Source: Methanotrichaceae archaeon
GTDB lineage: Archaea > Halobacteriota > Methanosarcinia > Methanotrichales > Methanotrichaceae
Length of the DNA stretch: 64,000 bases
Reading direction: 5' to 3'
Assembly: GCA_013178225.1 (NCBI GenBank)
Contig: JABLXE010000015.1
Coordinates: forward strand, 1 to 64,000
The notes below the pieces were generated by a model that saw only the letters and a list, made by a program, of their open reading frames with translations, was not told the DNA's origin and ran no database searches. Position 1 is the first letter of the stretch; each line of letters starts with the position of its first letter. A program made the translations under genes and the position numbers. Shown here piece after piece: positions 46,548 through 64,000 of this stretch.

Positions 46548-46886
46548 TCAGGTCCTGAGTCTCGCCAGAAGAACGCAAGCTGTCCGTCCACCTGAGTAGA
46601 ACTCCAGAGCGGCCCTGGCCACACTCGAGCTGAATTCAGGACGAACCCTGATGCAGACTCCAATCCCTTTGCCGCAAATGGCGAAGGCCACTGCCAGATG
46701 CCCCAGATCGGGGTACACCTGAGCGTTGTTTCCCAGGGTGCAGCCGGATACAGCCTGTACTTCGTCGGCAAAGCAGGCGTTAAACTCTACCAGGGCCAGA
46801 TTTCGCTTTAAATCTCCCATTCTTCTATCTTCTGCGGAGATTTGTGGTGGTTCCGTTTCGCTCAATCCAACCATCTCTAAATCCAA
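46548..46886 (-). CDS. Small FmdE-domain-like protein (C-terminal-half motif only)
   Basis: NACFADEVQAVSGCTLGNN matches the FmdE-family C..D..Q...TGCT.GK motif. The HxCPG half is absent. Confidence 0.35.
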   Translation of the reverse strand: MDLEMVGLSETEPPQISAEDRRMGDLKRNLALVEFNACFADEVQAVSGCTLGNNAQVYPDLGHLAVAFAICGKGIGVCIRVRPEFSSSVARAALEFYSGGRTACVLLARLRT

Positions 46887-46896
46887 CCGTCTCTGA

Positions 46897-47418
46897 TTAA
46901 AGTTTCCTTAGCTCGTCTACCGCTCTCAGGATTACGGACCTGATCTTCTCCCGATCGGTACCAGTCTCCAGGAGATCAGCAACCTGGTGAATCAGTAGAG
47001 CGAGCAGCTCCATATGTTCATTTACGGGAACTCTCATTCCTCGGTGAAGGTTATGCATATCTTTCATCAGATCCTGAACATCGCCCTCCTCGAATGTTTC
47101 GCTGGCCAGGGCTATGGATCGATGAAGCTTATTGATAAATTCATGTTTGGCGTCATTTATCTGAGCAACGTGTTCCCGGCCGGTATCCGTCAGGCTGTAG
47201 TAGGTCTTGCCATCCTCCATCCTTCCCGATATCCAGCCTTCCCGTTCCATCTTCTTCAATAAGGGATAGATCGACCCTGTGCTGGGTTTCTTGCCGGTAA
47301 TCGCTTCCACTTTCTTTATTATATCGTAGCCGGATGCCTCACCATCCTTCATAATGTGAAGCATAATCATCTTCAAGATGCCAGTTGCCATTAGATCTGT
47401 ATCGCTATATCGATGCAT
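46897..47418 (-). CDS. PadR-family transcriptional regulator
   Basis: The N-terminal winged helix (ILKMIMLHIMKDGEASGYDIIKKVEAITG...PSTGSIYPLLKKMEREGWISG) is followed by a C-terminal dimerisation helix. Confidence 0.8.
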   Translation of the reverse strand: MHRYSDTDLMATGILKMIMLHIMKDGEASGYDIIKKVEAITGKKPSTGSIYPLLKKMEREGWISGRMEDGKTYYSLTDTGREHVAQINDAKHEFINKLHRSIALASETFEEGDVQDLMKDMHNLHRGMRVPVNEHMELLALLIHQVADLLETGTDREKIRSVILRAVDELRKL

Positions 47419-47527
47419 ATATCGCTGTTGGTTATTCTTCCAGTCGGTCTATTCACTCGATCAAACCTTTACATCATATCGATTTAGACATATCTATACA
47501 GATACATATACTTTTTGAGCCAACCGT
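47401..47527 (-). promoter_or_regulatory. PadR upstream region: TATA-like element plus ATATCGAT palindrome boxes
   Basis: ATATCGAT occurs at 47406 and 47477, an ATATCGCT variant is present, and TACTTTTTGAGCCAACCG is shared with the promoters at 48714 and 51123. Confidence 0.35.
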
Positions 47528-47609
47528 GCTATAAAGTATAATTATTATCCATAAATTTCATAATAAATAGAAGAAAAGATGGAAAAGATTGCCATCTCGT
47601 CCAATTAGT

Positions 47610-48695
47610 TTAAGAAGATTCAACTCCCAGCACCTTCAGAGGATTGATGCCTGCGCCCTGAAGGACCTGGAGATCGTTCAAGCTCTCCAGATGAAACTCC
47701 TTTATTGTAGAAACGAAGTCCTCGGGGGAGTTGGCTGAGTCCATCAGAATCTCGTCCATCTTCAGCCTCCATGCCCAGGCGGGCCAGGTGTCGGAGTGGC
47801 TCATGTTAAAGCCCTTATCAAGGTCGAATCCCAGCACCAGGCCGTCACCTGAATTGGACGACGCATTCCAGCGGACAAATATTCCGGCCACGCTGGTATT
47901 GTATTTTTTCTTCAAGGCATTGGTCTCGTCTGTGGTGAGGTATTTGACGAACATGCCGCTCTTTCCGGGGGTGCAGTCCCATGCTGCCAGGAAGTAGTCC
48001 TCTTTGCACCAGTTGGGACAGCTTATAACCTTGTAGCTCTGGTTATTATAATCGGTAATCGGGAGCTTATCCTCGACATACTTTGCCTCCAAGAAGCCGC
48101 TGGAGATTCCAGGGCAGAGGTGATCGTGCAGCTCGACCGCTTTCATGAATATGTATGTGGCATTTTCGTGGGCCCACATGTTGGCGATGGGAAGCATGTG
48201 ATCAAAGAATCCCGGTTTCCAGGTATCCTTATTGGCCAGGACGTGGTCAATGTTAATCTTATCCGTTTTCTGGACCTCAAAACCTGTAGCGTTAGCGTTT
48301 ACCTTCATGTAGACAGCCTTGCCGGTGCTCTTATCAAAAAAGCCAAACCATAGCGGTTTCCATGGCGGACTTTGTACATCGACGAGGTTTTCCTTGCCCG
48401 GTGTGCAACCAGAAATATCCATCAATGCATCCAGGCACAAATTTGTGGTCTGACCATTGATCACCGGATATCCGGCATTGGTGAGCGTCAGCACATTCAC
48501 ATCACCCTTCTCGAATCCAAGCTCATCCATGGCATGGTTCGCGGCATCCGCGCCCAGCTGGTACATATCCACTTCGCTGCAAAGAGCCATTCCAGGCAGC
48601 ATAGCTATTATGAGCAGAATTGATACTGCAAATCGATCTATTCTCACATTCTCACCTTTTTGTCTCCTTTCATATGAATATATCTTTATCGACAT
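47610..48695 (-). CDS. Secreted FmdE-domain protein, paralog A
   Basis: Both FmdE motif halves are present but in permuted order (LTNAGY...CLDALMDISGCTPGKENL, then HDHLCPGISSG and a second pair CPNWC). A signal peptide (MSIKIYSYERRQKGENVRIDRFAVSILLIIAMLPGMALC) is present, with a start at ATG 48695 or GTG 48644. It shares HDHLCPG...YKVISCPNWCKED with the 57308..58366 protein. Confidence 0.7.
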   Translation of the reverse strand: MSIKIYSYERRQKGENVRIDRFAVSILLIIAMLPGMALCSEVDMYQLGADAANHAMDELGFEKGDVNVLTLTNAGYPVINGQTTNLCLDALMDISGCTPGKENLVDVQSPPWKPLWFGFFDKSTGKAVYMKVNANATGFEVQKTDKINIDHVLANKDTWKPGFFDHMLPIANMWAHENATYIFMKAVELHDHLCPGISSGFLEAKYVEDKLPITDYNNQSYKVISCPNWCKEDYFLAAWDCTPGKSGMFVKYLTTDETNALKKKYNTSVAGIFVRWNASSNSGDGLVLGFDLDKGFNMSHSDTWPAWAWRLKMDEILMDSANSPEDFVSTIKEFHLESLNDLQVLQGAGINPLKVLGVESS

Positions 48696-48740
48696 GTCTA
48701 TGAGATATAAATATGTTTTGACTAATTCGTAACCATAATT
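48672..48740 (-). promoter_or_regulatory. Promoter of FmdE paralog A: TATA box plus operator-like box
   Basis: On the minus strand TTTATATCTCAT reads as a TATA box, with TATCGACATGTCTA just downstream. The approximately 90-bp block ATGAGATATAAATATGTTTTGACTAATTCG...ATTTCATAAGAATTGATCCAAGG is about 85% identical to 51109-51190. Confidence 0.4.
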
Positions 48741-48819
48741 ATGATTATTTAACATTTATTTCATAAGAATTGATCCAAGGGACAGGAAAGATTTAAATTT
48801 TAAAAATTAAAATTATTTT

Positions 48820-49833
48820 TTATTTTTTAGCTATATCAATATCCATCGGCCCCCACCCAGTTTGGATGGTGCGAGACCGTACCGATCTGAATCCGGCCTT
48901 CAGCATGGCATCGGCAATGAAGCCCTGCTCGAAGGCCATCATCGGCCCGTTCATGGCCCAGCCCACAGTACAGAGCACATAGAAGTCCGGCTTCGTTCCC
49001 TCATCAGTAAGGCCTTCAGAAAGGTTCACGAAAAGGCCGCCGGGATTGAGGGCCTCGTAGATCTTCTTCATAACCGCGTCCATATTTTCTCGGGCGAAGT
49101 TGAGGGTGGCACTTGCCCAGATGAGATCGTAACCCTCACCGATGGGATCAAGATTGTAATCTCCGGCAAGAACCTCCATCCGGCCTTCCATTCCATACTC
49201 TTTGATGAACCTCTCCGCAACCTCGACCACAGGCTTTCGGTCAAAGATCACTCCCCTCATAGTGGGATGCTTTGCGACCATTGAAATTCCGAAGATGCCA
49301 GGACCGCCGCCCAGATCCAGCATCTTTTGAAATGATGAGAACCCCGGCTGCAGAGAGACCAGATCGGACATCTGCTGGGCAATTCCTGCTCGTTCATTAT
49401 TGGCCATCCAGGATGCAAACTGGCTCCATTTTTGAGGATCGGCATCGTCCTCCTCAGACTTTGCCGGCGGTCCCTCTCGGATCATCTTTGTCAGGTTTGT
49501 CAGCATCGCATCGGTCATGGAGGCCTGATGGGCAAACCCTTCTCCCAAATAGGTCGGGCTTCCCTCAACCAGAAAAGCCTGCGCAATTGGTGCGTTCCGA
49601 TAGAGGCCGTTATGCTTTTCTATCAGGCCGCAGGCGGCCAGGCCATTTAAAAATAGCATGGTGTTCCGGGATTGACCTTCGATCTCCTTCGCCACGTCCT
49701 CTGCTGATTTGGGCTCGGATAGCTGGTTAAAAACTTTTAGCTCGATTCCACTCATCAGCAGCTTGGCTTTAATAGGAGCATAAAGCATCCTGTAAAGCTC
49801 CTCGCAGCTGACATTTACCTCTGGCAGATTCAT
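48820..49833 (-). CDS. Class I SAM-dependent methyltransferase, O-methyltransferase family-2-like (N-terminal dimerisation/winged-helix plus MTase)
   Basis: Motif I is LDLGGGPGIFGISMV. An acidic residue after beta-2 (VIFDRKPV) is present, and the length fits the plant/bacterial OMT-type fold. Confidence 0.65.
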   Translation of the reverse strand: MNLPEVNVSCEELYRMLYAPIKAKLLMSGIELKVFNQLSEPKSAEDVAKEIEGQSRNTMLFLNGLAACGLIEKHNGLYRNAPIAQAFLVEGSPTYLGEGFAHQASMTDAMLTNLTKMIREGPPAKSEEDDADPQKWSQFASWMANNERAGIAQQMSDLVSLQPGFSSFQKMLDLGGGPGIFGISMVAKHPTMRGVIFDRKPVVEVAERFIKEYGMEGRMEVLAGDYNLDPIGEGYDLIWASATLNFARENMDAVMKKIYEALNPGGLFVNLSEGLTDEGTKPDFYVLCTVGWAMNGPMMAFEQGFIADAMLKAGFRSVRSRTIQTGWGPMDIDIAKK

Positions 49834-49887
49834 TGAGATTTCTCCTATTTCTGAAGTTGTATTGGGCGATCACTTGACAAGGTCAAT

Positions 49888-51060
49888 TCAGGTTATCTCC
49901 AGGTAGCGCAAAAGCTGCGCGTCAATAAGCTCGTTTGCCTTCTCATCGTCCACGTCGTAAAGCTCTCTGAAGTAATCCTCGATCCACTCTTCGAGATCGA
50001 TGTCCTCGAAACGATCTGGATATATTGCCTTCGCCGCTATCATCAGATGTATTGGAAATTCAAGCCGTTCATCCCTGTAAGGTGTAGCCGCAAGTGAATG
50101 TACCCGTTCGTCTTTTAGGGCTTTTAGCTCCTGGACTTTTTCAAACTGGCTGCCGTTATACATTACACTGGGAGGATGGTAGCCGGAGTATGTCGGCAAT
50201 ATTATCACATCGGGATCTATGGATAAAAGGCGCTCAGCTGAGATGAGCTCTGTATTGGTGCCGTCATAAGCGTTCTTGGCATTGATTATGTCCTCCAGGA
50301 ATGCTGATTCGATGGTGTCTGTGCCAAAGGCATAACCTGCGCCTCCTTTGTCCTTCGCGTAAGAGGACGCACCGAAGTACAGAACACGGGGACGATCTTT
50401 TTCTGAAACATCATTTGTCCTCTCCCTGATCAGCTCCACCTGTTCTTTCATGAGGTCAACGATCTTCTCTGCCTTCTCCTGTTTTCCAAATACCTCTCCC
50501 AGGAGCCTGACCTCTTCATAAATGGTGCTGACGCTCACATCATCATAGCAATCGGGATACTTCAATACCACAACGGGTATCTCCAGCCGCGACACTGCGT
50601 CCAGGAATTTAGCAGTATTTTCATCATCTGCACCCTGATCCCTCATTATTAAAAGATCCGGATCAAGTGAGGCTACAACCTCTACGTTGGGTGCAACTCC
50701 AAGGGGCCCGCCAAAAGCTCCTACATTGGTGAGATTTCGATACTCCGGATTGAGCACAAAGGAGATAAAAGGGCATATGCGATGGATTTCATTGTCATAA
50801 GTATAGTTGCCGTATCCATTGTCCTTATTGTATATGCTTCCGCCTACCAGCTTATCCTGCACGCCGAATGCATACATGGTCGTGTCTATAATTCCTCGGC
50901 TGATCGCGATGACCCTCTGCGGATCCTCCGGGATCGAAACCTGGACTCCGCGCATGTCGGTTACTGTCTTATAATCCTCTGCGACAACCGACACCACCTG
51001 CATAGCGACTATCGCCATTAAGATAGATAAAATCTGCATTCTTTTGGATTTTGTGATCAT
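49888..51060 (-). CDS. ABC-importer substrate-binding protein, FecB/BtuF (iron-siderophore/corrinoid) type
   Basis: A signal peptide is followed by a class III PBP pattern (two lobes linked by a long helix). LSIDPDVIIL and VVASLDPDLLIM are typical FecB blocks. Confidence 0.8.
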   Translation of the reverse strand: MITKSKRMQILSILMAIVAMQVVSVVAEDYKTVTDMRGVQVSIPEDPQRVIAISRGIIDTTMYAFGVQDKLVGGSIYNKDNGYGNYTYDNEIHRICPFISFVLNPEYRNLTNVGAFGGPLGVAPNVEVVASLDPDLLIMRDQGADDENTAKFLDAVSRLEIPVVVLKYPDCYDDVSVSTIYEEVRLLGEVFGKQEKAEKIVDLMKEQVELIRERTNDVSEKDRPRVLYFGASSYAKDKGGAGYAFGTDTIESAFLEDIINAKNAYDGTNTELISAERLLSIDPDVIILPTYSGYHPPSVMYNGSQFEKVQELKALKDERVHSLAATPYRDERLEFPIHLMIAAKAIYPDRFEDIDLEEWIEDYFRELYDVDDEKANELIDAQLLRYLEIT

Positions 51061-51075
51061 GGTTTCCTCCTGATA

Positions 51076-51140
51076 TATCGATACAGACGTGTCGATAAAG
51101 ACGTATCAAAATGAGATATAAATACTTTTTGACTCAATCG
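51076..51140 (-). promoter_or_regulatory. Promoter of PBP 49888..51060: TATA box followed by two palindrome boxes
   Basis: The boxes ATATATCGATACAGACGTGTCGATAAAG contain the 8-bp palindrome TATCGATA and lie between the TATA-like element GAGATATAAATAC and the start codon. Confidence 0.4.
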
Positions 51141-51290: not shown

Positions 51291-51350
51291 AAATTAGCAA
51301 ACTTAAAGCAAGTGCACTTGCTTAAAATATCTAATGCAACTCGGATGTGA

Positions 51351-52613
51351 TTGAAGGTGATCCAAATGAGATATCTTGTGATATTGGCATCGTGCATTTT
51401 AGCGGCTTTGTCCGCTAATGCATACGATTTCACTTTGAGCGTTTTTGGAAATGCCAATATGGACGACATCATAGATAATAATGATATAGCATATGTCCAG
51501 GGCATAATCGATAGCAGCAATGGAGCTACTGATCTTGCGGATGCAAATTGTGATGGCCATATCGACGAGAATGACGTCAATCAAATTGAATCGATAATAT
51601 CTGGCAAAGCGGTAGAGCTTACTCTCATTGATAATGAAGGCGTGACGGTTACCCTAAACGCGCCTGTAGACAGCGTTGCCACTTTATTTTTAGGAGCTCT
51701 AAGGCCGGTTATTCATCTCAAAGCTATCGATAAGATAATTGGTGTAGGAAGCAATACCCTGGCCAGGCCCGACAATGTGGTGGAGTTGCATGCCCATCCT
51801 GAGCTGAGGGGGCTTCCAGGAATAGGGACCACAAGCGACCCTTCAAAGGAGACCATAGTCTCACTTAAGCCGGATGCGATCTTTGGGACCCTTCACACGG
51901 ATAAGGAAACTTCAAAGGCCGTTTCTCAGAGCACAGGCATTCCTTTTGTATATGCCAATCCGTCGAAAGAGGTATTTCGCGAAGAAAATGGCGCTTTTGA
52001 GACCTGGAGGTTGCTGAGCCTAATATTAGGAAAGGACGAGCAAAAAAGATCTGAAGAGCTGATAGATTACTGCGATGAGAAGATCAACGAAATTGTGGAA
52101 GTCGTCTCTGAGGTCCCTGATGAAGACAAAACCAGGGTTTACATTGCCTGCACCAGCAAATCAGGCATAACCAGTACCGCCAATGTCTACGAGCCTATAG
52201 AAATCGCCGGCGGTAAAAACGTTGCAGAAGGAATGGCCGGGAGCGATTCCTGGGGGCACGTCGATGTCTCAAAGGAACAGATCATCGACTGGGACCCGGA
52301 GATAATTCTGATCACCTGCTATTCCAAGGAAAACTGGATAACTGTGGACGAAGTTTTATCTGATCCCGCGTTGCAGACCGTCAGTGCGGTAAAAAATAAG
52401 CAGGTCTACAATACGAAGGGCTGGTATGCAGGCTGGGATCCTGCAACGGGTCTATGTGAATGCCTATACATGGCCAAGCTGTTTTATCCCGAGAAATTCG
52501 AGGACCTTGATGTCGAAGCAGAATGCAACGAGGTGCTTGAAGAGTTCTACGGAGTCAGCGGACTGTACGACTGGATGCTGGAGAACTGCGGGGATTACTG
52601 CACCTGGAAGTAG
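51351..52613 (+). CDS. FecB-type substrate-binding protein with an N-terminal dockerin-like double repeat
   Basis: The signal peptide is followed by two EF-hand-like repeats of the type seen in type I dockerins (NANMDDIIDNNDIAYVQGIID and DANCDGHIDENDVNQIESIISG). After these comes an FecB-type periplasmic binding fold. Confidence 0.75.
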   Translation: MKVIQMRYLVILASCILAALSANAYDFTLSVFGNANMDDIIDNNDIAYVQGIIDSSNGATDLADANCDGHIDENDVNQIESIISGKAVELTLIDNEGVTVTLNAPVDSVATLFLGALRPVIHLKAIDKIIGVGSNTLARPDNVVELHAHPELRGLPGIGTTSDPSKETIVSLKPDAIFGTLHTDKETSKAVSQSTGIPFVYANPSKEVFREENGAFETWRLLSLILGKDEQKRSEELIDYCDEKINEIVEVVSEVPDEDKTRVYIACTSKSGITSTANVYEPIEIAGGKNVAEGMAGSDSWGHVDVSKEQIIDWDPEIILITCYSKENWITVDEVLSDPALQTVSAVKNKQVYNTKGWYAGWDPATGLCECLYMAKLFYPEKFEDLDVEAECNEVLEEFYGVSGLYDWMLENCGDYCTWK

Positions 52614-55952: not shown

Positions 55953-55979
55953 CCTGAGGGATAATTCGGGGATAATTCA

Positions 55980-57307: not shown

Positions 57308-58366
57308 TTACAGTACCCCGGCAACCTTTAACGGATGCATGCCGGCGTTCTGCAGCTGTGACAGCGTGGCCTGGTCCACCTTGAACTCCTTGATGGTTGA
57401 GACGAAGGCTTCAGGGGTGTCCACATAATCCATGAGGACCACGTCGGATGCCAGCTTGCTTCCCCAGGAGGGGCCGGTCCAGTTGGTCTTCGCAGCGCTG
57501 GAGTTATAGCTCAGAGCCAGTGCGTCGCCCTCATTGGTGGTGCTGTTCCAGCGGATGAAGATGCCGGCAATTCCGGGAATAGCCTTCTTCTCAGTATCGG
57601 TCAGAGCCATCACGAACATGCCGCTCTTTCCAGGGGTGGCATCCCAGCGCATCTGCAGCAGGTCTTCTTTACACCAGTTGGGGCAGGAGATGACCTTATA
57701 GCTCTCGCTGCTGCTGTTTATGGGCAGCTTGTCCTCGACGTACTTGGCCAGGAAGAGGCCGCTGGTCACGCCCGGGCAGAGGTGATCGTGGAAACAGGTG
57801 GCCTGTATGAAGTCAAACGACCCGCCGCGGGCCCAGACGTTGGATATGCCGGCTAAAGAGAACTCATTGCCGTTGAAGACCGCCTGGTTGAAGGTCACAT
57901 TTCCTTCATCGGTGTGGTTTTTCAGATAGTCGATGTCCACATTGGCCCTGGAGATGGTGCTGAACACCGTCTTTGCAGGCAGGGCCTTGAAATCGTCCAG
58001 GCTGGCGTTCAGTGACTGAGGATCAACCTCCATATAGACTGCTTCGCCGGTGGCCTTGTTGAAGAAATAGAACCACAGCGGCTTCCAGAAAGCCCGCAGG
58101 ACCTGGAACAGGTTACCGTCACCGATGCTGTTTCCGCTCTCTTCGGTCAGCCCCTTGATGGCCGCCTGGGTGGTCTGTCCATCCACCATGGCGTGTCCGG
58201 CATCGGTCAATATCAGGACATTGGCATCTCCTTTCTCGACATCGAGCTGCTGCATGGCCTCCTTGGCCGCCTTGATGCCAAGCTCTTCCATAACCGCGTT
58301 GTCGGCCAGGGAAAGCCCCGGAACCAGTGTCAGGAAAAGAACCGTGGCAATCGATACAACTTTCAA
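57308..58366 (-). CDS. Secreted FmdE-domain protein, paralog B
   Basis: A signal peptide (MKVVSIATVLFLTLVPGLSLA) is followed by the same permuted FmdE motifs (LTDAGH...; HDHLCPGVTSG; CPNWCKED). It aligns along its length with paralog A. Confidence 0.7.
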   Translation of the reverse strand: MKVVSIATVLFLTLVPGLSLADNAVMEELGIKAAKEAMQQLDVEKGDANVLILTDAGHAMVDGQTTQAAIKGLTEESGNSIGDGNLFQVLRAFWKPLWFYFFNKATGEAVYMEVDPQSLNASLDDFKALPAKTVFSTISRANVDIDYLKNHTDEGNVTFNQAVFNGNEFSLAGISNVWARGGSFDFIQATCFHDHLCPGVTSGLFLAKYVEDKLPINSSSESYKVISCPNWCKEDLLQMRWDATPGKSGMFVMALTDTEKKAIPGIAGIFIRWNSTTNEGDALALSYNSSAAKTNWTGPSWGSKLASDVVLMDYVDTPEAFVSTIKEFKVDQATLSQLQNAGMHPLKVAGVL

Positions 58367-58781: not shown

Positions 58782-59618
58782 GTGATACGAAAAGGTCTTT
58801 CTCACCTTCTGAAGAATCTGCATAAAAGCGATGTTATAACCTCGCTTGATTCCGTAAGCATGAAGGTTCGGGAAGGAGAGGTAGTCGGCCTTCTCGGCCC
58901 CAATGGGGCAGGCAAATCCACTCTGATTAAGATCCTCTGCACGCTGATCCTGCCAACGTGCGGCGAGGCTTGCATCAACGGCTACGATGTAGTAAAAGAG
59001 AGCAGACGGGTCCGGGAATCCCTCGGCTTCGTCACCACCGATGAGAGAAGTTTCTACTGGCGGCTGAGCGGGAGAGAAAACCTCCAGTTCTTTGCCGCTC
59101 TACACAATATGAGGTCTATTGACGCTCAAAGAAAGGCGGATGAGGTACTGGATGTCGTCCACCTGAAGAACAGAGCCGATGAGCTTTTCTTGAACTACTC
59201 GGCAGGGATGAAGCAGCGCATGGCCATTGCCAGAGGACTGCTAAATGACCCATTAGTCCTGTTCATGGACGAGCCCACCCGGAGCCTGGACCCCGGATCG
59301 GCAAAGAGTCTCAGGGACTTCATCAAGGAGATCATCGTAAAGGAACAGGGAAAGACGGTCTTTATCTGCACCCATCAGCTGGACGAGGCCGAGCAGTTGT
59401 GCGATAGGGTGGCATTTCTCGATGAGGGCAGGCTCAAGGCCATTGGAGATCCGGCTGAACTGAAGAAAGACCTGGGAGATGGCTCCTCGCTCTGCGATGT
59501 ATTCTCCCATTATACAGGAAAACGGTTCGAAGACGAATGCCCTTCACAATTTCCGCTAATGGGCCGCAGAGATGGCATGCGTCATAGGGGATTTGGGATG
59601 AGGAGACGGGGATTGTAA
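58782..59618 (+). CDS. ABC transporter ATP-binding protein (ABC-2 exporter type)
   Basis: Walker A (GPNGAGKST), a signature variant (YSAGMKQRMAIA) and Walker B (LFMDEPTRSLD) are present. Confidence 0.85.
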   Translation: MIRKGLSHLLKNLHKSDVITSLDSVSMKVREGEVVGLLGPNGAGKSTLIKILCTLILPTCGEACINGYDVVKESRRVRESLGFVTTDERSFYWRLSGRENLQFFAALHNMRSIDAQRKADEVLDVVHLKNRADELFLNYSAGMKQRMAIARGLLNDPLVLFMDEPTRSLDPGSAKSLRDFIKEIIVKEQGKTVFICTHQLDEAEQLCDRVAFLDEGRLKAIGDPAELKKDLGDGSSLCDVFSHYTGKRFEDECPSQFPLMGRRDGMRHRGFGMRRRGL

Positions 59619-60436
59619 TGGAGCAGATCTTGCTTTTTGAAAAGGCCCGCTGGTTCATAAAGAGGGGTTATCTGCTACAGATGAGCTACAAATTCGATTT
59701 CTTCTTGCGATTATTCTTTATGTTCTTCAATATCCTTACCTATTACTTCATTGCCAAGATGATCGGAGATGCGGGCTCGCAGTACCTTCAGTCCTACGGA
59801 GGCGACTATTTCTCATTTGTGCTCATAGGAATGGCCTTCTCCGGCTACCTCCAGATCTCCCTTCGAAGCTTCTCAGAGAGCGTCCGGGACGAGCAGATGA
59901 TGGGAACCCTAGAAGCCATGCTGGTCACTCCCACCAGCACATCCACCATCATCGCTTTATCATCTCTTTGGAGCTTTATCTTTGCCTCATTCCGGGTACT
60001 GGTCTATCTCCTGATCGGCGTTTTCCTGGGCGTAAACATGACCAACGCCAATATTGCAGGGGCACTGGTAATTCTGGTTCTGACCATAATGTGCTTCAGC
60101 GGCATCGGCATATTATCTGCGAGCTTCATTATGGTCTTTAAGAGAGGAGACCCGATAAACATGCTGCTCATGGGAACGTCCGAACTCTTCGGAGGCGTGC
60201 TGTTTCCAATTGAGGTCCTTCCGGCGTGGCTGCAGAGCATATCTCACCTCCTTCCCATGACCTATGCCGTCAACGGCATGAGACATGCTCTCTTGCAGGG
60301 ATATTCTCTGCAGGAATTGGCCCCCGAAATCCTGCCCCTGGCCCTATTCTCTCTCATCTTGCTACCTATTAGCCTGGTGGTTTTTGATCGTGCGGTGATG
60401 AGGGTCAAGGCTTACGGCGGATTGGTCCAATATTAG
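59618..60436 (+). CDS. ABC-2 family transporter permease
   Basis: The protein has six TM segments. Its start overlaps the ATPase gene stop, consistent with an ABC-2 exporter pair. Confidence 0.75.
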   Translation: MEQILLFEKARWFIKRGYLLQMSYKFDFFLRLFFMFFNILTYYFIAKMIGDAGSQYLQSYGGDYFSFVLIGMAFSGYLQISLRSFSESVRDEQMMGTLEAMLVTPTSTSTIIALSSLWSFIFASFRVLVYLLIGVFLGVNMTNANIAGALVILVLTIMCFSGIGILSASFIMVFKRGDPINMLLMGTSELFGGVLFPIEVLPAWLQSISHLLPMTYAVNGMRHALLQGYSLQELAPEILPLALFSLILLPISLVVFDRAVMRVKAYGGLVQY

Positions 60437-60585
60437 CATAATTCCCCTCTTATTTCTCTATTTTATTTCGTGTTATTTTTTATAGTTGAAAATCAAAATG
60501 CTTTGAAATAAATAATCTAATTCAATAACATATTAACGATAAGTCTTAAATATGATTTAATAATTAACACAAAACTTGTGCAAAT

Positions 60586-61785
60586 ATGAATGAAGGCCGT
60601 AAGAGGCCTGCCAATCGTATCACAACGAGCACGGAGAGAGAACGAATGCGCATCATTAACCTGTCAAATAGGGCATTGCTGCTACTATTATTATGCTCCA
60701 TATTTTTTTTGAGCTTATCAGCAATGGCATCGTATCCCAAGACCTTTACCGATACTCAGGGCCGGGAGATAACGCTTGATGAGCCGGTGGAGAGGATAAT
60801 CACCCGGGCTCCGGACGAAGCCAGGGTGATCATTGCCCTGGGATATGGAGACAAGCTAATTGCAGGAGAACAGGCCACCAAATCCTGTCTCTGCCCCATG
60901 ACCTTCGACAATACCACAGAGGGATGCTCGGACTGCTTCAACACCATCATCGGCGGCCGCATGCCGGATCTGCCCGAGATCAGCACTCGATATGACATCT
61001 ACTTCGAGCAGATAGCTGCCCTCAAGCCTGACATCATCTTCTGCGGAAACCTGAAAGATGCTGAAGCCTTCGAGGAGAAGATCGGCTGCCCGGTGGTCGT
61101 TTTGGGAGGTTCAGGCTGGGACTTCGATGACGGCGGATGCATAACCAGCATCAAGGTGGCCGGGGAGGCCCTGGACTGCGAAGACCGGGCTGACGATTTG
61201 ATCGATTTCATAAACGGCAAGATCGATATGGTGAAATCGGTATCGGAAAATGTACCTGAGGACGAGAAACCCACGGTCTACTTCGCATCCCGCGGCGCGA
61301 CCAACGCCTTTTACGACCCCAAGGAGGGACGGGACTTCACCCGAACCGAGCCCTCGTATGATCCTCTGCTGGCTGCAGGCGGCCATAACGTGGCCTCTGA
61401 GATCAACGGCTCCACAGTGAACGTGGCACTCGAGCAGATCATTGCCTGGGACCCGGACTACATCTTCATATCCAACAGCCAGGCGGGAAACAACACCGGA
61501 CTGGATTTCATCAAGAACAGCCCTGAACTTCAATCCATAAATGCCATCAAGAACGGCAATGTCTACAACTGCTTCTATCCCCACTGCCGCGGCCAGCCTC
61601 CAGACCGAAACCTCCTGAACATGCTCTACATGGCCAAGATCCTCTATCCGGAGGAGTTCGAGGATATGGACCTGGAAGAAGAGGGCAATGAGGTCTTCAA
61701 GGCCTTCCTGGGAGTGGACGGAGTCTTTTCGGACTATGCCGATTACCTGGTTTGGCCCAGGGAATACCTGGACAGCCTGAAGTAG
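60586..61785 (+). CDS. FecB-type substrate-binding protein (lipoprotein-like signal)
   Basis: The likely start is MRIINLSN...LLLCSIFFLSLSAMAS near 60646. The FecB blocks ALKPDIIFC and IAWDPDYIFIS are present. Confidence 0.75.
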   Translation: MNEGRKRPANRITTSTERERMRIINLSNRALLLLLLCSIFFLSLSAMASYPKTFTDTQGREITLDEPVERIITRAPDEARVIIALGYGDKLIAGEQATKSCLCPMTFDNTTEGCSDCFNTIIGGRMPDLPEISTRYDIYFEQIAALKPDIIFCGNLKDAEAFEEKIGCPVVVLGGSGWDFDDGGCITSIKVAGEALDCEDRADDLIDFINGKIDMVKSVSENVPEDEKPTVYFASRGATNAFYDPKEGRDFTRTEPSYDPLLAAGGHNVASEINGSTVNVALEQIIAWDPDYIFISNSQAGNNTGLDFIKNSPELQSINAIKNGNVYNCFYPHCRGQPPDRNLLNMLYMAKILYPEEFEDMDLEEEGNEVFKAFLGVDGVFSDYADYLVWPREYLDSLK

Positions 61786-61795
61786 GGATTCGGAT

Positions 61796-62635
61796 ATGAC
61801 TGGAGTCATAAACTGGAACGAACTCTGGAAGGTGAGCCACCATAACGGCTTTCACCATCACGGCGAAGATCTTGCCGATCACTGGGATCGCAGAGCCCGG
61901 GAGTTCAACCGTATGGTCATGCGGCACAAAGAGAGGGCAGAGGCTCAGGTTTCCTCTCTGGGCTTGAGCCACGAGGACACGGTTTTGGATATAGGTGCCG
62001 GAACCGGTCGCCTGGCCATCCCCATGGCCAGGATAGCCAAGTCCGTAACTGCCCTGGACCAGTCCGGCGGAATGCTGGCCTGCCTCAAGGAAAATATGGA
62101 TAGAGAAGGCCTATCCAATATCCAGATAGTGCAGAAGAGCTGGCAGGACCTGAGCCCGGACAGCCTTCCGGGGCACGACGTGGTTCTCTCATCCAACTCC
62201 TTGGGCGTTTCCGACTTGCAGGAGGCACTCTCCAAGATGGACGGCCTGGCCAAAAAGGCCGTTTACATCTTCACCTTTGCAGACCGGAAGAGGGACGAAG
62301 GATTTCACGACTTTCTGGGGCAAAAGCATCATCATCATCATCATCGGGCCTCCAACCTTCCGCCAGACTATATCATAATCTATAATCTGCTCGCAGAAAT
62401 GGGAATTCTCGCCGACGTGAAGATCGTTGAGTGGGAAGCCCAAGAGCACTACTCAAGTCTCGAGGAGGCAGTGGCTAGCTGGAAGGAGATGCACGAGATT
62501 TTACCGGAAAAAGAGCCGCAGCTGAGGGAATTTCTGTCCCAGAAGCTGGAAAAAGACGACCAGGGACTGTGTATGCACCGGCGCTCCAAGCAGGCCAGGA
62601 TATCCTGGCAAAAGAGCCTGGAAGGTCCCGCCTAG
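61796..62635 (+). CDS. Class I SAM-dependent methyltransferase containing a native His6 tract
   Basis: Motif I is VLDIGAGTGRLAIPMA, motif II is HDVVLSSNS, and an internal GQKHHHHHHRAS run is present. Confidence 0.7.
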   Translation: MTGVINWNELWKVSHHNGFHHHGEDLADHWDRRAREFNRMVMRHKERAEAQVSSLGLSHEDTVLDIGAGTGRLAIPMARIAKSVTALDQSGGMLACLKENMDREGLSNIQIVQKSWQDLSPDSLPGHDVVLSSNSLGVSDLQEALSKMDGLAKKAVYIFTFADRKRDEGFHDFLGQKHHHHHHRASNLPPDYIIIYNLLAEMGILADVKIVEWEAQEHYSSLEEAVASWKEMHEILPEKEPQLREFLSQKLEKDDQGLCMHRRSKQARISWQKSLEGPA

Positions 62636-62645
62636 AGGGGTTAGC

Positions 62646-63425
62646 ATGGTTTCCATACCCCTTCTAGCAGGATCAATTTTTTTGATAGCTGTTATAGCCG
62701 TCAGCACTAAGGTGGTCAAGCAGTACGAGCAGGCGGTGATACTTCGTCTGGGCAAGATCCAGAAGGAGAGAGGACCAGGGCTCTTCCCGCTCGTGCCCCT
62801 GATGGACAAGATGGTCAGAGTGGACATGAGGTTAAGAGAGCTGGACGTGCCCAAGCAGACGGTGATCTCCAGCGACAACGTCACCCTGGAGGTGGACGCA
62901 GTGATCTACTACAAGGTCAAGGATGCCACCCGGGCCATCATCGAGGTCGAGGACTACGAAGCTGCGACGCTTCTGCTCGCCCAGACCACTCTGAGAGACA
63001 TTCTGGGACAAAATGAGCTGGACACCATTCTCTCCGACAGAGACGACCTCAACAACAGGATCAAGGAGATACTGGATGCCGCAACCGAACCCTGGGGAAT
63101 GCATGTGGCGATGGTTACCATGAGAGACGTGGCCCTTCCCGAGAATATGCTGCGGGCCATTGCCAGACAGGCGGAGGCGGAGCGCGAGAAGAGAGCCAGG
63201 ATCATTCTGGCCGAGGGAGAGTACCAGGCCTCCCAGATGATGAACGATGCTGCCAGCATGTACGAGAACAAGCCCAGCGCCCTGAAGCTGCGAGAGTTCC
63301 AGACTCTGACCGAGATCGCAAAGGAGAAGAACCTCATCGTCGTTTCCACCGGATCCGATAATGGAGCAAAAACCTCTGAGATTCCCATACTGATGGGACT
63401 TTCCAAGGCGGCTGCAGATAGATGA
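62646..63425 (+). CDS. SPFH/band-7 stomatin-like protein
   Basis: An N-terminal TM anchor is followed by the stomatin signature region (QAVILRLGKI...RVDMRLRELDVPKQTVISSDNVTLEVDAVIYYKV). Confidence 0.85.
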   Translation: MVSIPLLAGSIFLIAVIAVSTKVVKQYEQAVILRLGKIQKERGPGLFPLVPLMDKMVRVDMRLRELDVPKQTVISSDNVTLEVDAVIYYKVKDATRAIIEVEDYEAATLLLAQTTLRDILGQNELDTILSDRDDLNNRIKEILDAATEPWGMHVAMVTMRDVALPENMLRAIARQAEAEREKRARIILAEGEYQASQMMNDAASMYENKPSALKLREFQTLTEIAKEKNLIVVSTGSDNGAKTSEIPILMGLSKAAADR

Positions 63426-64000
63426 CGGACTACAGAGCGTTCTTCCACGGCAAGCCCGAACAGAAGCTGTCCAGGTCCAGACGGGTCAAGAAGAAGAGCC
63501 AGATGGAAGAGGCTCACGAAAAGTTCAAGTTCGTCCGCATTTTCTTCGTGCTTTCCGTGCTCGGCCTGCTGGTCCTTCTAATTGGCATCATAATCACCCT
63601 GGGACCCCTCAACATCTCTGTAAGCGAGGCCTATTCCGCTCTTCTCCAGAAATTCTTTCCCGCTTACTTCCAGGTAGAGGCCCTGACCTCTCGCGTGGTC
63701 TGGAACATCAGGTTTCCCCGCATCCTGGGCGGAATCATGGCCGGCTTCGGCCTGGGGATGTGCGGATGCGTGATGCAGGCCGTCCTCAAGAATCCGCTGG
63801 CAAGCCCCTTCACCCTGGGAATTACCGCCGGAGCGCAGTTCGGCATCTCGACCGCTGCGGTCCTGGGCGTAACCATTCTGGGAGGGCCGTACCTCCTGGT
63901 TGGAAATGCCTTCATCTTCGCCCTCCTCTGCTCGATGATCATCGTTGCCCTGGCAGCCATTAAAGGGGCCACCTCCGAGAATCTGGTGCTGGCGGGAATC
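63422..64000 (+). CDS. FecCD/BtuC-family permease, partial (runs off the window end)
   Basis: Its ATG overlaps the stomatin TGA (ATGA). The translation contains RFPRILGGIMAGFGLGMCGCVMQAVLKNPLASPFTLGI, homologous to the 52640 permease. It is absent from the supplied track because no stop falls inside the window. Confidence 0.8.
   Translation, partial: MTDYRAFFHGKPEQKLSRSRRVKKKSQMEEAHEKFKFVRIFFVLSVLGLLVLLIGIIITLGPLNISVSEAYSALLQKFFPAYFQVEALTSRVVWNIRFPRILGGIMAGFGLGMCGCVMQAVLKNPLASPFTLGITAGAQFGISTAAVLGVTILGGPYLLVGNAFIFALLCSMIIVALAAIKGATSENLVLAGI

What the first reader, a model, noticed from the sequence alone, without database searches (positions are those of the whole stretch)
46548..64000. Duplicated module: secreted FmdE-domain protein + SAM methyltransferase + FecB-type binding protein + FecCD/FecE importer
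The same gene set appears twice. Module 1 runs from about 46.5 to 54.5 kb. It has a PadR regulator, FmdE paralog A, an OMT-like methyltransferase, PBP1 and, divergently, PBP2 (with dockerin) with a FecCD permease and a FecE ATPase. Module 2 runs from about 57.3 kb to the window end. It has FmdE paralog B, an ABC-2 exporter pair, PBP3, a His6-containing methyltransferase and a stomatin-like gene, followed by a FecCD permease that runs off the window end. The two FmdE proteins are clear paralogs, sharing HDHLCPG...YKVISCPNWCKED. Their FmdE motif halves are in permuted order relative to the canonical domain, and both carry signal peptides. Pairing extracytoplasmic FmdE-like proteins and methyltransferases with siderophore/corrinoid-type importers is not a textbook operon. 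It suggests an uptake or remodelling system for a metal-containing cofactor or metallophore.
Basis: partly seen in the sequence, partly recalled or inferred. Interest (0 to 1): 0.75.

Follow-up and report, generated by a model that had tools for sequence, protein, structure and literature searches.

The report
Exported FmdE metal-uptake gene clusters
This stretch of a Methanothrix-type methanogen genome holds two old copies of a conserved but unstudied gene cluster, built around an exported metal-binding FmdE protein, that most likely scavenges a trace metal such as nickel or cobalt.

Summary
The gene inventory is real. Every domain call passes Pfam thresholds, and the two FmdE proteins are true paralogs (43% identity, E 3e-95).

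Three details are wrong or overstated:
- The FmdE proteins are not circularly permuted. They carry two tandem FmdE-like domains: a degenerate N-terminal copy and a complete C-terminal copy. The C-terminal copy has an invariant His-x-His-x-Cys...Cys site, spaced exactly as in the Zn/Ni site of crystallised FmdE.
- The two methyltransferases are unrelated families, so only part of the module is duplicated. The two copies are ancient paralog lineages.
- ORF 46548-46886 is a deletion remnant of a third, canonical cytoplasmic FmdE gene.

Co-localisation is strongly conserved. Exported tandem-FmdE genes lie next to ABC-2 exporters, FecB/FecCD or NikA-type importers and the same ~280-aa methyltransferase family in Methanothrix and Methanospirillum. 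In bacteria they lie next to TonB-dependent receptors, and in Methanobacterium next to CbiM/CbiQ and a CobN-like gene.

Best reading: an uncharacterised uptake system for a thiophilic metal or metal chelate, probably Ni or Co. The substrate and the methyltransferase role are inferred. FmdE adjacency to metal transporters was already noted in 2010, so I rate this a new variant of a known kind.

The parts
46548..46886 (-). Remnant (pseudogene) of a canonical cytoplasmic FmdE + zinc-ribbon gene
   Evidence: - Pfam FmdE 40 bits, covering only profile positions 30-96.
- Relatives carry an intact 254-257 aa gene with HGHFCPG and a C-terminal CxxC...CxxC at the same place after PadR (L002 4435-5208, L004 11853-12617).
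- The window copy aligns only to residues 89-156 of that protein.
- The HxHxC region is deleted, as read directly from the sequence.
46897..47418 (-). PadR-family transcription regulator
   Evidence: - Pfam PadR 59.4 bits.
- Conserved next to FmdE_A in close relatives, at 84-91% identity.
47610..48647 (-). FmdE_A: exported tandem-FmdE protein (345 aa from GTG 48647; the ORF extends to 48755)
   Evidence: - Pfam FmdE 63.6 bits in 2 stretches. The two halves score separately.
- Homologs are about 345 aa and start MKIDRF. GTG 48647 is preceded by GGTGA.
- H173, H175, C177 and C213 are invariant.
48820..49833 (-). MT1: family-2 O-methyltransferase-type small-molecule SAM methyltransferase with dimerisation domain
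   Evidence: - Pfam Methyltransf_2 54.8 bits plus Dimerisation 34.9 bits.
- Nearest solved relatives are SibL, RedM and DsyB.
- An MTase of the same family (24% identity, E 1e-25) heads an FmdE operon in a bacterial MAG.
49888..51060 (-). PBP1: class III (FecB/BtuF-type) substrate-binding protein with signal peptide
   Evidence: - Pfam Peripla_BP_2 68.2 bits.
- PDB relatives are 2etv, 4ovk, 6b2x, 3psa and H. pylori CeuE 4ino.
51351..52613 (+). PBP2: class III substrate-binding protein with an N-terminal extension of about 90 aa (dockerin-like loops, unconfirmed)
   Evidence: - Pfam Peripla_BP_2 79.4 bits.
- No Pfam hit for the N-terminal extension.
- 32% identical to PBP3.
- PDB relatives are 2etv, 4hn9 and 3psa.
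52640..53713 (+). FecCD-type permease of a type II ABC importer
   Evidence: Pfam FecCD 308.8 bits over the full profile.
53739..54509 (+). ABC ATPase of the importer (FecE/BtuD type)
   Evidence: Pfam ABC_tran 123.9 bits. Same strand as, and 25 nt after, the permease gene.
57308..58366 (-). FmdE_B: exported tandem-FmdE protein, paralog of FmdE_A
   Evidence: - Pfam FmdE 55.4 bits.
- 43% identical to FmdE_A, E 3e-95.
- Belongs to the B clade: 61-81% identical to P0035 through P0107.
- Signal-like N-terminus MKVVSIATVLFLTLVPGLSLA/DN.
58782..59618 (+). DrrA-like ABC ATPase, divergent from FmdE_B
   Evidence: - Pfam ABC_tran 106 bits.
- NCBIfam drrA 254 bits, below the cut-off of 312.
- Orthologs at 63-76% identity lie beside FmdE_long genes in L010, L012, L013 and L015.
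59618..60436 (+). ABC-2 permease (exporter-type)
   Evidence: - Pfam ABC2_membrane 73.2 bits.
- Its start overlaps the ATPase stop.
- Orthologs at 74-85% identity occupy the same position in L010-L015.
60586..61785 (+). PBP3: class III substrate-binding protein (the likely start is the internal ATG at 60646, giving 379 aa)
   Evidence: - Pfam Peripla_BP_2 110 bits.
- Orthologs at 81-82% identity in L002, L012, L013 and L015 are 379 aa and align from residue 47.
61796..62635 (+). MT2: class I SAM methyltransferase of a family tied to exported-FmdE clusters. It has an N-terminal HHxGFHHH motif and a window-specific His6.
   Evidence: - Pfam Methyltransf_25 49 bits.
- Family alignment with 8 neighbours of FmdE_long genes: 30-71% identity, with invariant N-terminal W7/W11/K12 (NWxExWK motif) and the GAGxG motif.
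- All homologs carry only generic names.
62646..63425 (+). SPFH/Band_7 (stomatin-like) membrane protein
   Evidence: - Pfam Band_7 136 bits.
- Holds the same position between the MTase and FecCD in L002, L012, L013 and L015.
63422..64000 (+). Second FecCD permease, N-terminal 193 aa, cut by the window end
   Evidence: - Its ATG at 63422 overlaps the SPFH stop codon.
- 49% identical to FecCD1.
- 85% identical to the L002 ortholog, which is followed by an ABC ATPase.

Best explanation
The region carries two ancient paralogous versions of one conserved, uncharacterised acquisition system for a thiophilic transition metal or a small metal-ligand complex. Nickel or cobalt is the most likely metal.

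Proposed mechanism
1. Each version is built around an exported protein of about 345-350 aa. It consists of two FmdE-like domains in tandem.
2. The N-terminal domain has lost the metal motif. The C-terminal domain keeps a single His-x-His-x-Cys...Cys site identical in spacing to the Zn/Ni site of crystallised FmdE.
3. I propose that this protein captures the metal or complex outside the membrane. In archaea it hands it to class III binding proteins (PBP1-3) for import by FecCD/FecE-type ABC importers. In Gram-negative relatives it works with TonB-dependent receptors.
4. The cytoplasmic small-molecule SAM methyltransferases (MT1, MT2) act on the accompanying organic ligand. They either make it or inactivate it to release the metal.
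5. The DrrAB-like ABC-2 pair exports that ligand or its methylated product.
6. PadR is the local regulator.

Shown: domain identities, the fold, conservation of the site, export signals, paralogy and conserved synteny.

Inferred: that the site binds metal in this subfamily, the identity of the metal, the hand-off, and the roles of the methyltransferases, SPFH and the exporter.
For: Domains and fold
- Domains pass Pfam cut-offs.

Metal site
- H173, H175, C177 and C213 are invariant in 26 of 26 family members.
- C177 and C213 are 36 residues apart, exactly as Cys19 and Cys55 in 2GLZ. In 2GLZ, His15/His17/Cys19/Cys55 hold a mixed Zn/Ni ion (PMC2954224).

Export
- The N-termini are signal-like throughout the family.
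- One bacterial member is annotated 'conserved exported'.

Conserved neighbourhoods of exported-FmdE genes
- FmdE <-> DrrA-ABC2-Peripla_BP_2-MTase-Band_7-FecCD-ATPase in three further Methanothrix contigs.
- FmdE-Peripla_BP_2-FecCD-ATPase-MTase in Methanospirillum.
- FmdE with NikA/CntA-like SBP_bac_5, a MinD-like ATPase, Flavin_Reduct, HMA, TrmO-like and a NikR C-domain fragment.
- CbiM/CbiQ and a CobN-like gene in Methanobacterium.
- Two FmdE_long genes, each followed by a TonB-dependent receptor, with a divergent FecCD/ABC/Peripla_BP_2 operon, in Desulfamplus. One of those receptors passes the cut-off for a Cys/Sec-motif receptor family.
- A single tight operon in a bacterial MAG: O-MT, short FmdE, NikA-like importer, TonB-dependent receptor, FmdE_long, ABC-2 exporter.

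Methyltransferases
- MT2 and the MTases next to other FmdE_long genes form one family.
- MT2 has a small-molecule methyltransferase fold. Its closest structure is the thiol S-methyltransferase TmtA.

Published precedent
- The 2010 paper independently reports that most PF02663 genes neighbour metal-ion transporter genes.
Against: - There is no experimental datum for any member of this subfamily.
- The binding proteins match siderophore, heme, Ni-(His)2, molybdate and B12 binders about equally poorly. All NCBIfam hits are far below cut-offs.
- No nickel- or cobalt-specific gene (NikR, SBP_bac_5, CbiM, CooC-like) lies in the window itself. The metal assignment therefore rests on other genomes.
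- L012, L013 and L015 are related Methanothrix lineages, so their synteny is not three independent observations.
- Two of 14 loci lack a transporter nearby (L014 and L020).
- Signal peptides were read by eye, not predicted with a dedicated tool.
Confidence: 0.55

Rival explanations
1. Corrinoid or other metallo-tetrapyrrole (B12 or F430-type) salvage and remodelling. The binding proteins and FecCD/FecE act like BtuFCD. The exported FmdE captures the cofactor, analogous to BtuG. The methyltransferases modify the macrocycle.
For: - Peripla_BP_2/FecCD is the BtuFCD class.
- MT1's best NCBIfam hit is the tetrapyrrole C-methylase BchU. MT2's best hits are CpaM and CbiT.
- A CobN-like chelatase gene follows the FmdE_long gene in Methanobacterium.
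- HEM4 lies upstream of, and a cobalamin-riboswitch-controlled CbiK-BtuFCD-like operon lies downstream of, the FmdE operon in L021.
- A B12-binding protein is encoded in L018.
Against: - All those methyltransferase hits are far below cut-offs: 35 against 276, and 49 against 180.
- The riboswitch in L021 controls the neighbouring operon, not the FmdE genes. No riboswitch precedes the TonB-receptor/FmdE genes of L018.
- Many FmdE_long genes sit with NikA/CntA-like importers, HMA, CbiM and a NikR fragment, which point to ions or small chelates.
- The conserved site is a His2Cys2 ion site.
Confidence: 0.15
2. Export-centred system. A toxic thiophilic metal, metalloid or thiol compound is methylated by the SAM methyltransferases and expelled by the ABC-2 pump. 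The exported FmdE acts as an extracytoplasmic sink or chaperone, in the manner of NosL with the ABC-2 complex NosDFY. The importers are bystanders.
For: - The DrrA/ABC-2 pair is the most constant immediate neighbour of FmdE_long, present in 10 of 14 loci.
- The regulators nearby are PadR, HxlR and MarR types, typical of stress or efflux control.
- The MTase-TrmO fusion in relatives hits arsenite methyltransferase best (62 bits).
- MT2 is closest to the detoxifying thiol S-methyltransferase TmtA.
Against: - Binding-protein-dependent importers and TonB-dependent receptors lie in the same operons, and those are uptake machines.
- The arsenite methyltransferase hit is far below its cut-off of 263.
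- No ArsR, MerR or efflux P-type ATPase is encoded in the window.
Confidence: 0.12
3. Molybdenum or tungsten supply for formylmethanofuran dehydrogenase, in keeping with the family name. The exported FmdE and MolA-like binding proteins would take up molybdate or tungstate.
For: - FmdE was first found in fmd/fwd operons (PMC2954224).
- PBP2 and PBP3 match the H. influenzae HI_1472 chain (3psa) with E 3e-16 and 1e-9. From my own knowledge, HI_1472 is the molybdate/tungstate binding protein MolA.
Against: - Only 13 of 208 PF02663 genes neighbour fmd genes.
- No fmd/fwd, mod/tup/wtp or moa genes were found among the ORFs scanned in the window or in any related locus.
- A His2Cys2 site suits soft cations, not oxyanions.
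- 3psa is not the best structural relative of any of the three binding proteins.
Confidence: 0.05
4. No single system. The region is a variable island where transporter, regulator and methyltransferase genes accumulate, and the FmdE genes are merely neighbours.
For: - Gene content differs even among 86-93% identical relatives. SBP_bac_5, Flavin_Reduct and the MTase-TrmO fusion are present there and absent here.
- The stretch contains a pseudogenised FmdE and a split MFS gene.
- A transposase gene lies elsewhere in the window.
Against: - The same partners recur with FmdE_long in Methanotrichales, Methanomicrobiales and two bacterial lineages, often in tight same-strand operons with overlapping stops and starts. 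Methanobacterium adds only CbiM/CbiQ and a CobN-like gene.
- The order PBP-MTase-Band_7-FecCD-ATPase is kept in four Methanothrix contigs.
Confidence: 0.1

Closest known systems
Canonical FmdE/FwdE proteins (Pfam PF02663; structures 2GLZ, 2GVI, 3D00)
   Same: - Same His-x-His-x-Cys...(35 residues)...Cys site, which binds Zn/Ni in 2GLZ and Zn in 2GVI.
- Same tendency to lie beside metal-ion transporter genes.
   Different: - The canonical proteins are cytoplasmic, 150-260 aa, single-domain and intertwined homodimers, often with a C-terminal treble-clef zinc finger.
- The window proteins carry a signal peptide, have two tandem FmdE-like domains of which only one keeps the site, and have no zinc finger.
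- Some relatives reach 700-1100 aa and give two to four matches to the family profile.
- No function has been shown for either form.
Type II ABC importers with class III binding proteins (FecBCDE, BtuFCD, and H. pylori CeuE-FecDE for Ni-(His)2)
   Same: - Peripla_BP_2 + FecCD + ABC ATPase, in operon order.
- The PDB entry for H. pylori CeuE (4ino) is titled a nickel-binding protein and is a detectable relative of PBP1 and PBP2. That its ligand is Ni-(L-His)2 is from my own knowledge.
   Different: - None of the known systems includes an exported FmdE protein, an in-operon SAM methyltransferase, an SPFH protein or a paired ABC-2 exporter.
- All NCBIfam equivalog scores are far below cut-offs.
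Opine-metallophore systems (staphylopine or pseudopaline Cnt: biosynthesis enzymes that use SAM, an exporter, a TonB-dependent receptor or SBP_bac_5 importer). Comparison from my own knowledge of the Cnt literature.
   Same: - Overall logic of the related loci: a SAM-using small-molecule enzyme, an exporter, and a NikA/CntA-like or TonB-dependent uptake route in one operon.
- Broad Ni/Co/Zn specificity would fit the His2Cys2 site.
   Different: - No CntL/CntM or nicotianamine-synthase homolog was detected. The enzymes here are ordinary methyltransferase folds.
- The exporter is ABC-2, not MFS or EamA.
- The window uses FecB-type rather than CntA-type binding proteins.
- No metallophore is known from Methanothrix.
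Extracytoplasmic capture or chaperone proteins that feed transporters: BtuG with BtuB, HmuY/HasA hemophores, NosL with the ABC-2 complex NosDFY, and periplasmic CbiK(P) of Desulfovibrio. Comparison from my own knowledge.
   Same: - An exported ligand- or metal-binding protein is encoded directly beside a TonB-dependent receptor or an ABC-2 transporter.
- A normally cytoplasmic family is redeployed outside the cell.
   Different: - No sequence or fold relationship to any of these proteins.
- The hand-off is entirely inferred.

Membership tests
FmdE (Pfam PF02663) | Sequence match above the Pfam gathering score | tested here: met
   FmdE_A 63.6 bits, FmdE_B 55.4 bits and the remnant 40.2 bits, against a cut-off of 22.9.
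FmdE (Pfam PF02663) | Alpha+beta core fold of 2GLZ, 2GVI and 3D00 | tested here: met
   [not shown]
FmdE (Pfam PF02663) | His-x-His-x-Cys plus a distal Cys metal site | tested here: met
   H173, H175, C177 and C213 are invariant in 26 of 26 sequences. The Cys-Cys spacing of 36 equals that of Cys19-Cys55 in 2GLZ. Metal binding itself was not tested.
FmdE (Pfam PF02663) | C-terminal treble-clef zinc finger (present in a subset of the family) | tested here: not met
   No zf-dskA_traR hit in FmdE_A or FmdE_B. The finger is present in the short FmdE of relatives.
FmdE (Pfam PF02663) | Location in a formylmethanofuran dehydrogenase operon | tested here: not met
   No fmd/fwd subunit genes among the window ORFs scanned, nor in any of the related loci whose called genes and Pfam hits were listed (L008-L021). 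This holds for only 13 of 208 family members anyway.
   The N-terminal half matches profile positions 11-86 and the C-terminal half matches 1-69. They overlap over positions 11-69, so these are tandem domains. A direct N-against-C profile comparison is weak: 14 columns, E 0.077.
Type II ABC importer (FecBCDE/BtuFCD class) | Peripla_BP_2 binding protein + FecCD permease + ABC ATPase | tested here: met
   Pfam 68-110 bits, 309 bits and 124 bits. The second permease is partial.
Type II ABC importer (FecBCDE/BtuFCD class) | Assignable substrate class (siderophore, heme, B12, Ni chelate or molybdate) | tested here: inconclusive
   The best NCBIfam hits score 50-76 bits against cut-offs of 205-640. 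PDB relatives are of mixed specificity.
DrrAB-type ABC-2 exporter | DrrA-like ATPase followed by an ABC-2 permease | tested here: inconclusive
   Pfam domains are met. NCBIfam drrA scores 254 against 312, and drrB 58 against 223, both below cut-off. Direction of transport was not tested.
Class I SAM-dependent methyltransferases | Rossmann-like fold with a GxGxG SAM motif | tested here: met
   - MT1: Methyltransf_2 plus Dimerisation.
- MT2: Methyltransf_25/31/11, with LDIGAGTG.
Dockerin (PBP2 N-terminus) | Match to the Pfam Dockerin_1 model | tested here: not met
   No dockerin hit at E <= 1 for residues 1-110. Only two Ca-loop-like motifs are seen by eye.
Nik/Cnt-type nickel or opine-metal importer | SBP_bac_5 binding protein with NikBCDE-type permeases, plus NikR | tested here: not met
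   Absent from the window by tblastn. Present beside FmdE_long in L010, L012, L015, L017 and L021, but below NikA and CntA cut-offs.

The most novel reading that the evidence does not exclude
Exported tandem-FmdE proteins would be a previously unrecognised class of extracellular metal-capture proteins. They would let strict anaerobes (Methanothrix, Methanospirillum, Methanobacterium and sulfate-reducing Desulfobacterota) pull nickel or cobalt out of sulfidic, metal-starved surroundings. They would feed FecB-type or NikA-type importers in archaea and Cys/Sec-motif TonB-dependent receptors in bacteria. A dedicated cytoplasmic SAM methyltransferase and an ABC-2 exporter would recycle or destroy a thiol-type ligand. 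Together this would be a new trace-metal acquisition pathway for major methane producers.
Probability: 0.3. Interest if true: 0.8.

Novelty: new variant of a known kind. Interest (0 to 1): 0.58.

Why it matters
Methanothrix is among the most important methane producers on Earth, and its core enzymes need nickel, cobalt and iron. A 2023 study states that little is known about nickel uptake in methanogens (PMC10617489).

If correct, this reading would do three things:
- It would give FmdE, a family with solved structures but no function since the 1990s, a testable role.
- It would point to a metal-supply route relevant to methane emission and to trace-metal dosing of anaerobic digesters.
- It would link archaeal and bacterial uptake machineries through one shared exported component.

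The family is modest in size but spans both domains. There are 398 cluster representatives at E <= 1e-3 and 135 at E <= 1e-30.

Tried and rejected
- **Sequence search of FmdE_A against PDB.** No hit at E <= 1. Only the fold search found the FmdE structures.
- **Internal-duplication test by hhalign (N half against C half).** It gave only a 14-column match at the GCTPGK/DCTPGK motif, E 0.077. The tandem-domain conclusion therefore rests on Pfam matches of each half and on the secondary-structure order in the model.
- **Domain fusions in the 700-1100 aa relatives.** I checked them for clues to function. Pfam found only FmdE matches, and no other domain.
- **Shared operators.** A search for shared inverted repeats in the three promoter-bearing intergenic regions found nothing in common. 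The sigma-70 and terminator scan does not apply to archaea.
- **The His6 tract of MT2 as a nickel clue.** The tract is not conserved in orthologs. Only the N-terminal HHxGFHHH motif is conserved, and only within subfamily a.
- **The MinD/CbiA-like ATPase beside many FmdE_long genes.** I suspected it was CooC-like. NCBIfam gives only MinD, ParA and Mrp similarities, and the gene is absent from the window.
- **Riboswitches.** None in the window, L018, L008 or L020. The single cobalamin riboswitch, in L021, controls a neighbouring operon.
- **Literature.** Seven full-text searches found no study of exported FmdE proteins or of this cluster.
- **afdb50 fold library.** It was unavailable.

Full report
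**Source and gene map**

The window comes from a Methanothrix/Methanotrichaceae genome. The nearest relatives of its proteins are Methanothrix MAGs. One protein is 100% identical to a protein on a 72.5-kb contig labelled 'Methanotrichaceae archaeon'.

ORF listing and Pfam/NCBIfam scans give the following map.

| Coordinates | Strand | Gene |
|---|---|---|
| 46548-46886 | - | FmdE fragment |
| 46897-47418 | - | PadR |
| 47610-48647 | - | FmdE_A |
| 48820-49833 | - | MT1, a family-2 O-methyltransferase type with dimerisation domain |
| 49888-51060 | - | PBP1 |
| 51351-52613 | + | PBP2 |
| 52640-53713 | + | FecCD |
| 53739-54509 | + | ABC ATPase |
| 55248-57268 | + | Spacer: a CPBP protease gene and a split MFS gene |
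| 57308-58366 | - | FmdE_B |
| 58782-59618 | + | DrrA-like ATPase |
| 59618-60436 | + | ABC-2 permease |
| 60586-61785 | + | PBP3 |
| 61796-62635 | + | MT2 |
| 62646-63425 | + | SPFH |
| 63422-64000 | + | Second FecCD; its ATG overlaps the SPFH stop |

All domain assignments exceed Pfam gathering scores.

**How far the region is 'duplicated'**

- FmdE_A and FmdE_B are clear paralogs: 43% identity over 361 aligned positions, E 3e-95.
- The two FecCD genes are 49% identical. PBP2 and PBP3 are 32% identical. PBP1 is only 22-25% identical to either.
- MT1 and MT2 are not paralogs. They share only 51 residues around the SAM motif, E 0.011, and they belong to different methyltransferase families.
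- In an alignment of 26 family members, the FmdE proteins split into two clades. The A clade is 56-75% identical to A and 43-48% identical to B. The B clade is 61-81% identical to B.

The two modules are therefore old paralogous systems, not a recent duplication.

**Anatomy of the FmdE proteins**

- *Start and signal.* Homologs are about 345-370 aa and begin with a charged N-terminus, a hydrophobic stretch of about 15 residues, and an Ala-x-Ala-like end. In FmdE_A the matching start is GTG 48647, preceded by GGTGA.
The N-terminal half alone matches Pfam FmdE profile positions 11-86 (27 bits, above the cut-off). The C-terminal half matches positions 1-69 (40 bits). In FmdE_B the same coordinates are matched, with 14.5 and 45 bits. 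Two segments that cover the same profile region are tandem domains.
- *One metal site.* The N-terminal copy lacks the HxHxC segment, and in most members it also lacks the cysteines. The C-terminal copy has H173, H175, C177 and C213 invariant in 26 of 26 sequences.
- *Match to the crystal site.* In 2GLZ, His15/His17/Cys19/Cys55 coordinate an ion of mixed Zn/Ni occupancy. In 2GVI the equivalent residues bind Zn (PMC2954224). The Cys-to-Cys distance is 36 residues in both 2GLZ and the window proteins.
- *Pseudo-dimer idea.* Canonical FmdE is an intertwined homodimer (same paper). A single chain with two FmdE-like domains may be a fused pseudo-dimer with one active site. That is my inference; I had no access to the model coordinates to test it.

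**The third FmdE**

In relatives, PadR is followed by two genes. The first is an intact 254-257 aa cytoplasmic FmdE with HGHFCPG and a C-terminal zinc ribbon. The second is a 401-433 aa fusion of a methyltransferase and a TrmO-like domain (L002 and L004).

The window keeps only a 112-codon ORF, which aligns to residues 89-156 of that FmdE. The fusion gene is gone. In its place, on the other strand, is a secreted Cys-rich repeat protein that these relatives lack.

**Conservation of the neighbourhood**

- *Methanothrix, module 2 order.* The order FmdE <-> DrrA-ABC2-Peripla_BP_2-MTase-Band_7-FecCD-ATPase recurs in three further Methanothrix contigs, with protein identities of 62-86%. The part from the binding protein to the ATPase also recurs in a closer relative.
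- *A-clade orthologs.* In M. harundinacea-like genomes these lie opposite DrrA-ABC2-Flavin_Reduct-Peripla_BP_2, or near a methyltransferase plus a NikA-type importer.
- *Methanospirillum stamsii.* One apparent operon reads FmdE_long-Peripla_BP_2-FecCD-ATPase-MTase-MinD-like ATPase. An ABC-2 pair and a canonical FmdE lie beside it.
- *Other Methanothrix loci.* These add NikA/CntA-like SBP_bac_5 proteins, HMA, a TrmO homolog that passes its NCBIfam cut-off, Nik-type permeases and a NikR C-domain fragment. One also has CbiM and a P-type ATPase.
- *Family size.* A profile search of 1.84 billion representatives finds 398 family members at E <= 1e-3 and 135 at E <= 1e-30. Some are 700-1100 aa and give two to four matches to the family profile. 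Pfam finds only FmdE in the ten of these checked.
- *Taxonomic spread.* Members occur in Methanobacterium aggregans, Desulfamplus magnetovallimortis (annotated 'conserved exported'), Desulfobulbaceae and other bacterial MAGs.
- *Methanobacterium.* The gene sits between CbiM/CbiQ and a 1584-aa CobN-like gene.
- *Desulfamplus.* Two FmdE_long genes are each followed by a TonB-dependent receptor, then a short FmdE and a TrmO-like gene. A divergent FecCD/ABC/Peripla_BP_2 operon lies alongside. One receptor passes the NCBIfam cut-off for the 'FCYXU motif-type' family (870 against 825). I read the U in that family name as selenocysteine, which would make it a Cys/Sec-motif receptor class.
- *Bacterial MAG (L021).* A single tight operon reads O-MT (24% identical to MT1, E 1e-25), short FmdE, NikA-like importer, TonB-dependent receptor, FmdE_long, ABC-2 exporter.
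- *Exceptions.* Two of 14 distinct loci lack a nearby transporter (L014 and L020).
- *Caveat.* Several of the Methanothrix contigs are related to one another, so they are not independent observations.

**The methyltransferases**

- MT2, the methyltransferases in the same operon position elsewhere, and a second type that follows FmdE-(SBP_bac_5)-MinD-like-Flavin_Reduct all form one family. They are 30-71% identical to MT2, with invariant N-terminal W7/W11/K12 (NWxExWK motif) and the GAGxG motif.
- Databases call the members only 'class I SAM-dependent methyltransferase'.
- The His6 tract is specific to this window. A HHxGFHHH motif near the N-terminus is conserved in the closer subfamily.
- MT1's nearest solved relatives are SibL, RedM and DsyB.
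- Both enzymes thus look like small-molecule modifiers. This is why I think an organic ligand is involved.

**Substrate**

The three binding proteins are class III. Their nearest solved relatives are:
- uncharacterised 'iron complex' proteins (2etv, 4hn9);
- 6b2x (deposited as an iron/siderophore solute-binding protein; YiuA, from my own knowledge);
- 3psa (H. influenzae HI_1472, which I know as the molybdate/tungstate binder MolA);
- H. pylori CeuE (deposited as a nickel-binding protein; a Ni-(His)2 binder, from my own knowledge).

All NCBIfam equivalog scores are far below cut-offs. The substrate class cannot be read from sequence.

The case for nickel or cobalt is circumstantial:
- the His2Cys2 site with Zn/Ni in the crystal;
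- NikA/CntA-like, NikR, CbiM, HMA and CobN neighbours in other genomes;
- the Cys/Sec-motif receptor in Desulfamplus.

None of these nickel or cobalt markers lies in the window itself.

**Mechanism and rivals**

I favour a metal or metal-chelate acquisition system (confidence 0.55). The exported FmdE is the extracellular capture or hand-off component. The methyltransferases and the ABC-2 pump handle an organic ligand.

| Rival | Confidence | Main argument against |
|---|---|---|
| Corrinoid or tetrapyrrole salvage | 0.15 | Sub-threshold methylase similarities. Riboswitches are absent from the FmdE operons; the one cobalamin riboswitch found controls the adjacent CbiK operon in L021. |
| Export or detoxification-centred system | 0.12 | Uptake machinery lies in the same operons. 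|
| Mo/W supply for formylmethanofuran dehydrogenase | 0.05 | No fmd, mod or moa genes, and the site chemistry is wrong for oxyanions. |
| Mere co-location in a variable island | 0.10 | Synteny is conserved across domains. |

**What is already known**

- FmdE structures and the remark that most PF02663 genes neighbour metal-ion transporter genes date from 2010 (PMC2954224).
- A 2026 proteomics paper still states that FmdE's function is undetermined (PMC13355700).
- I found no paper on exported or tandem FmdE proteins, or on this cluster, in seven full-text searches.
- Databases already label these proteins 'FmdE family protein'.

I therefore rate the finding as a new variant of a known kind. 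It is a real, conserved, uncharacterised system with a concrete and testable hypothesis. It does not rest on a new protein fold or a new transporter class.

Noticed in passing
window 45504-46469 (+): A 321-aa secreted, very Cys-rich protein with repeated CPTGSSCPTGGECTTSCHCQTCSD units. The repeats come from a 72-bp tandem repeat (4.6 copies, 92% matches) at 45929-46261. It has no Pfam family and is absent from the close relatives, where an MTase-TrmO fusion gene occupies this position. It could be an extracellular thiol-rich metal binder or an envelope protein.
   Followed up: partly
window 55980-56780 and 56762-57268 (+): An MFS transporter gene is split into two overlapping ORFs (MFS_1 profile positions 1-229 and 242-339). 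This is a frameshift: either a pseudogene or a sequencing error.
   Followed up: partly
L002 5232-6437; L004 12514-13815; L018 12217-12747; L012 15398-15865: TrmO-like (tRNA m6t6A methyltransferase family) genes recur beside FmdE genes in Methanothrix and in Desulfamplus. Some are free-standing and some are fused to an ArsM-like class I methyltransferase. The fusion protein's TrmO domain is 50% identical to the bacterial gene. This is an odd partner for a metal-transport cluster and is unexplained.
   Followed up: partly
L018 5724-7871: The TonB-dependent receptor next to an exported FmdE in Desulfamplus passes the cut-off of NCBIfam NF049945 'FCYXU motif-type' (870.5 against 825). I read the U in the family name as selenocysteine, so this would be a receptor class defined by a Cys/Sec motif. 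Here the corresponding stretch reads SYCEVC.
   Followed up: partly
L021 15222-15403 (+): A cobalamin riboswitch (109 bits) lies in front of a CbiK-Peripla_BP_2-FecCD-ATPase operon, immediately downstream of the bacterial FmdE operon. HEM4 lies immediately upstream of that FmdE operon.
   Followed up: no
L019 11588-16342: A 1584-aa CobN/Mg-chelatase-like gene directly follows the 985-aa multi-unit exported FmdE gene of Methanobacterium aggregans, next to CbiM/CbiQ genes.
   Followed up: no
window 51351-51620 (+): PBP2 carries an N-terminal extension of about 90 aa with two D/N-x-N-x-D-x-x-I-D-x-x-D loops that resemble dockerin calcium loops. Pfam finds no dockerin. The extension is conserved in the ortholog in L001.
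   Followed up: partly
window 41805-45260 (-): Just upstream of the cluster lie a metallo-beta-lactamase + rhodanese protein, a second rhodanese-like ORF, a TspO/MBR tetrapyrrole-binding membrane protein and a cupin.
   Followed up: no
window 11427-12299 (+) and 30710-31561 (-): A DDE transposase gene (DUF772 + DDE_Tnp_1) and a second Band_7/SPFH gene lie elsewhere in the window.
   Followed up: no
L002 and L004 (whole loci): Genomes 86-93% identical to the window arrange the same parts differently. They also carry NikA-like SBP_bac_5 genes, and L004 a Flavin_Reduct gene, that the window lacks. The locus is a hot spot of rearrangement and gene loss.
   Followed up: partly
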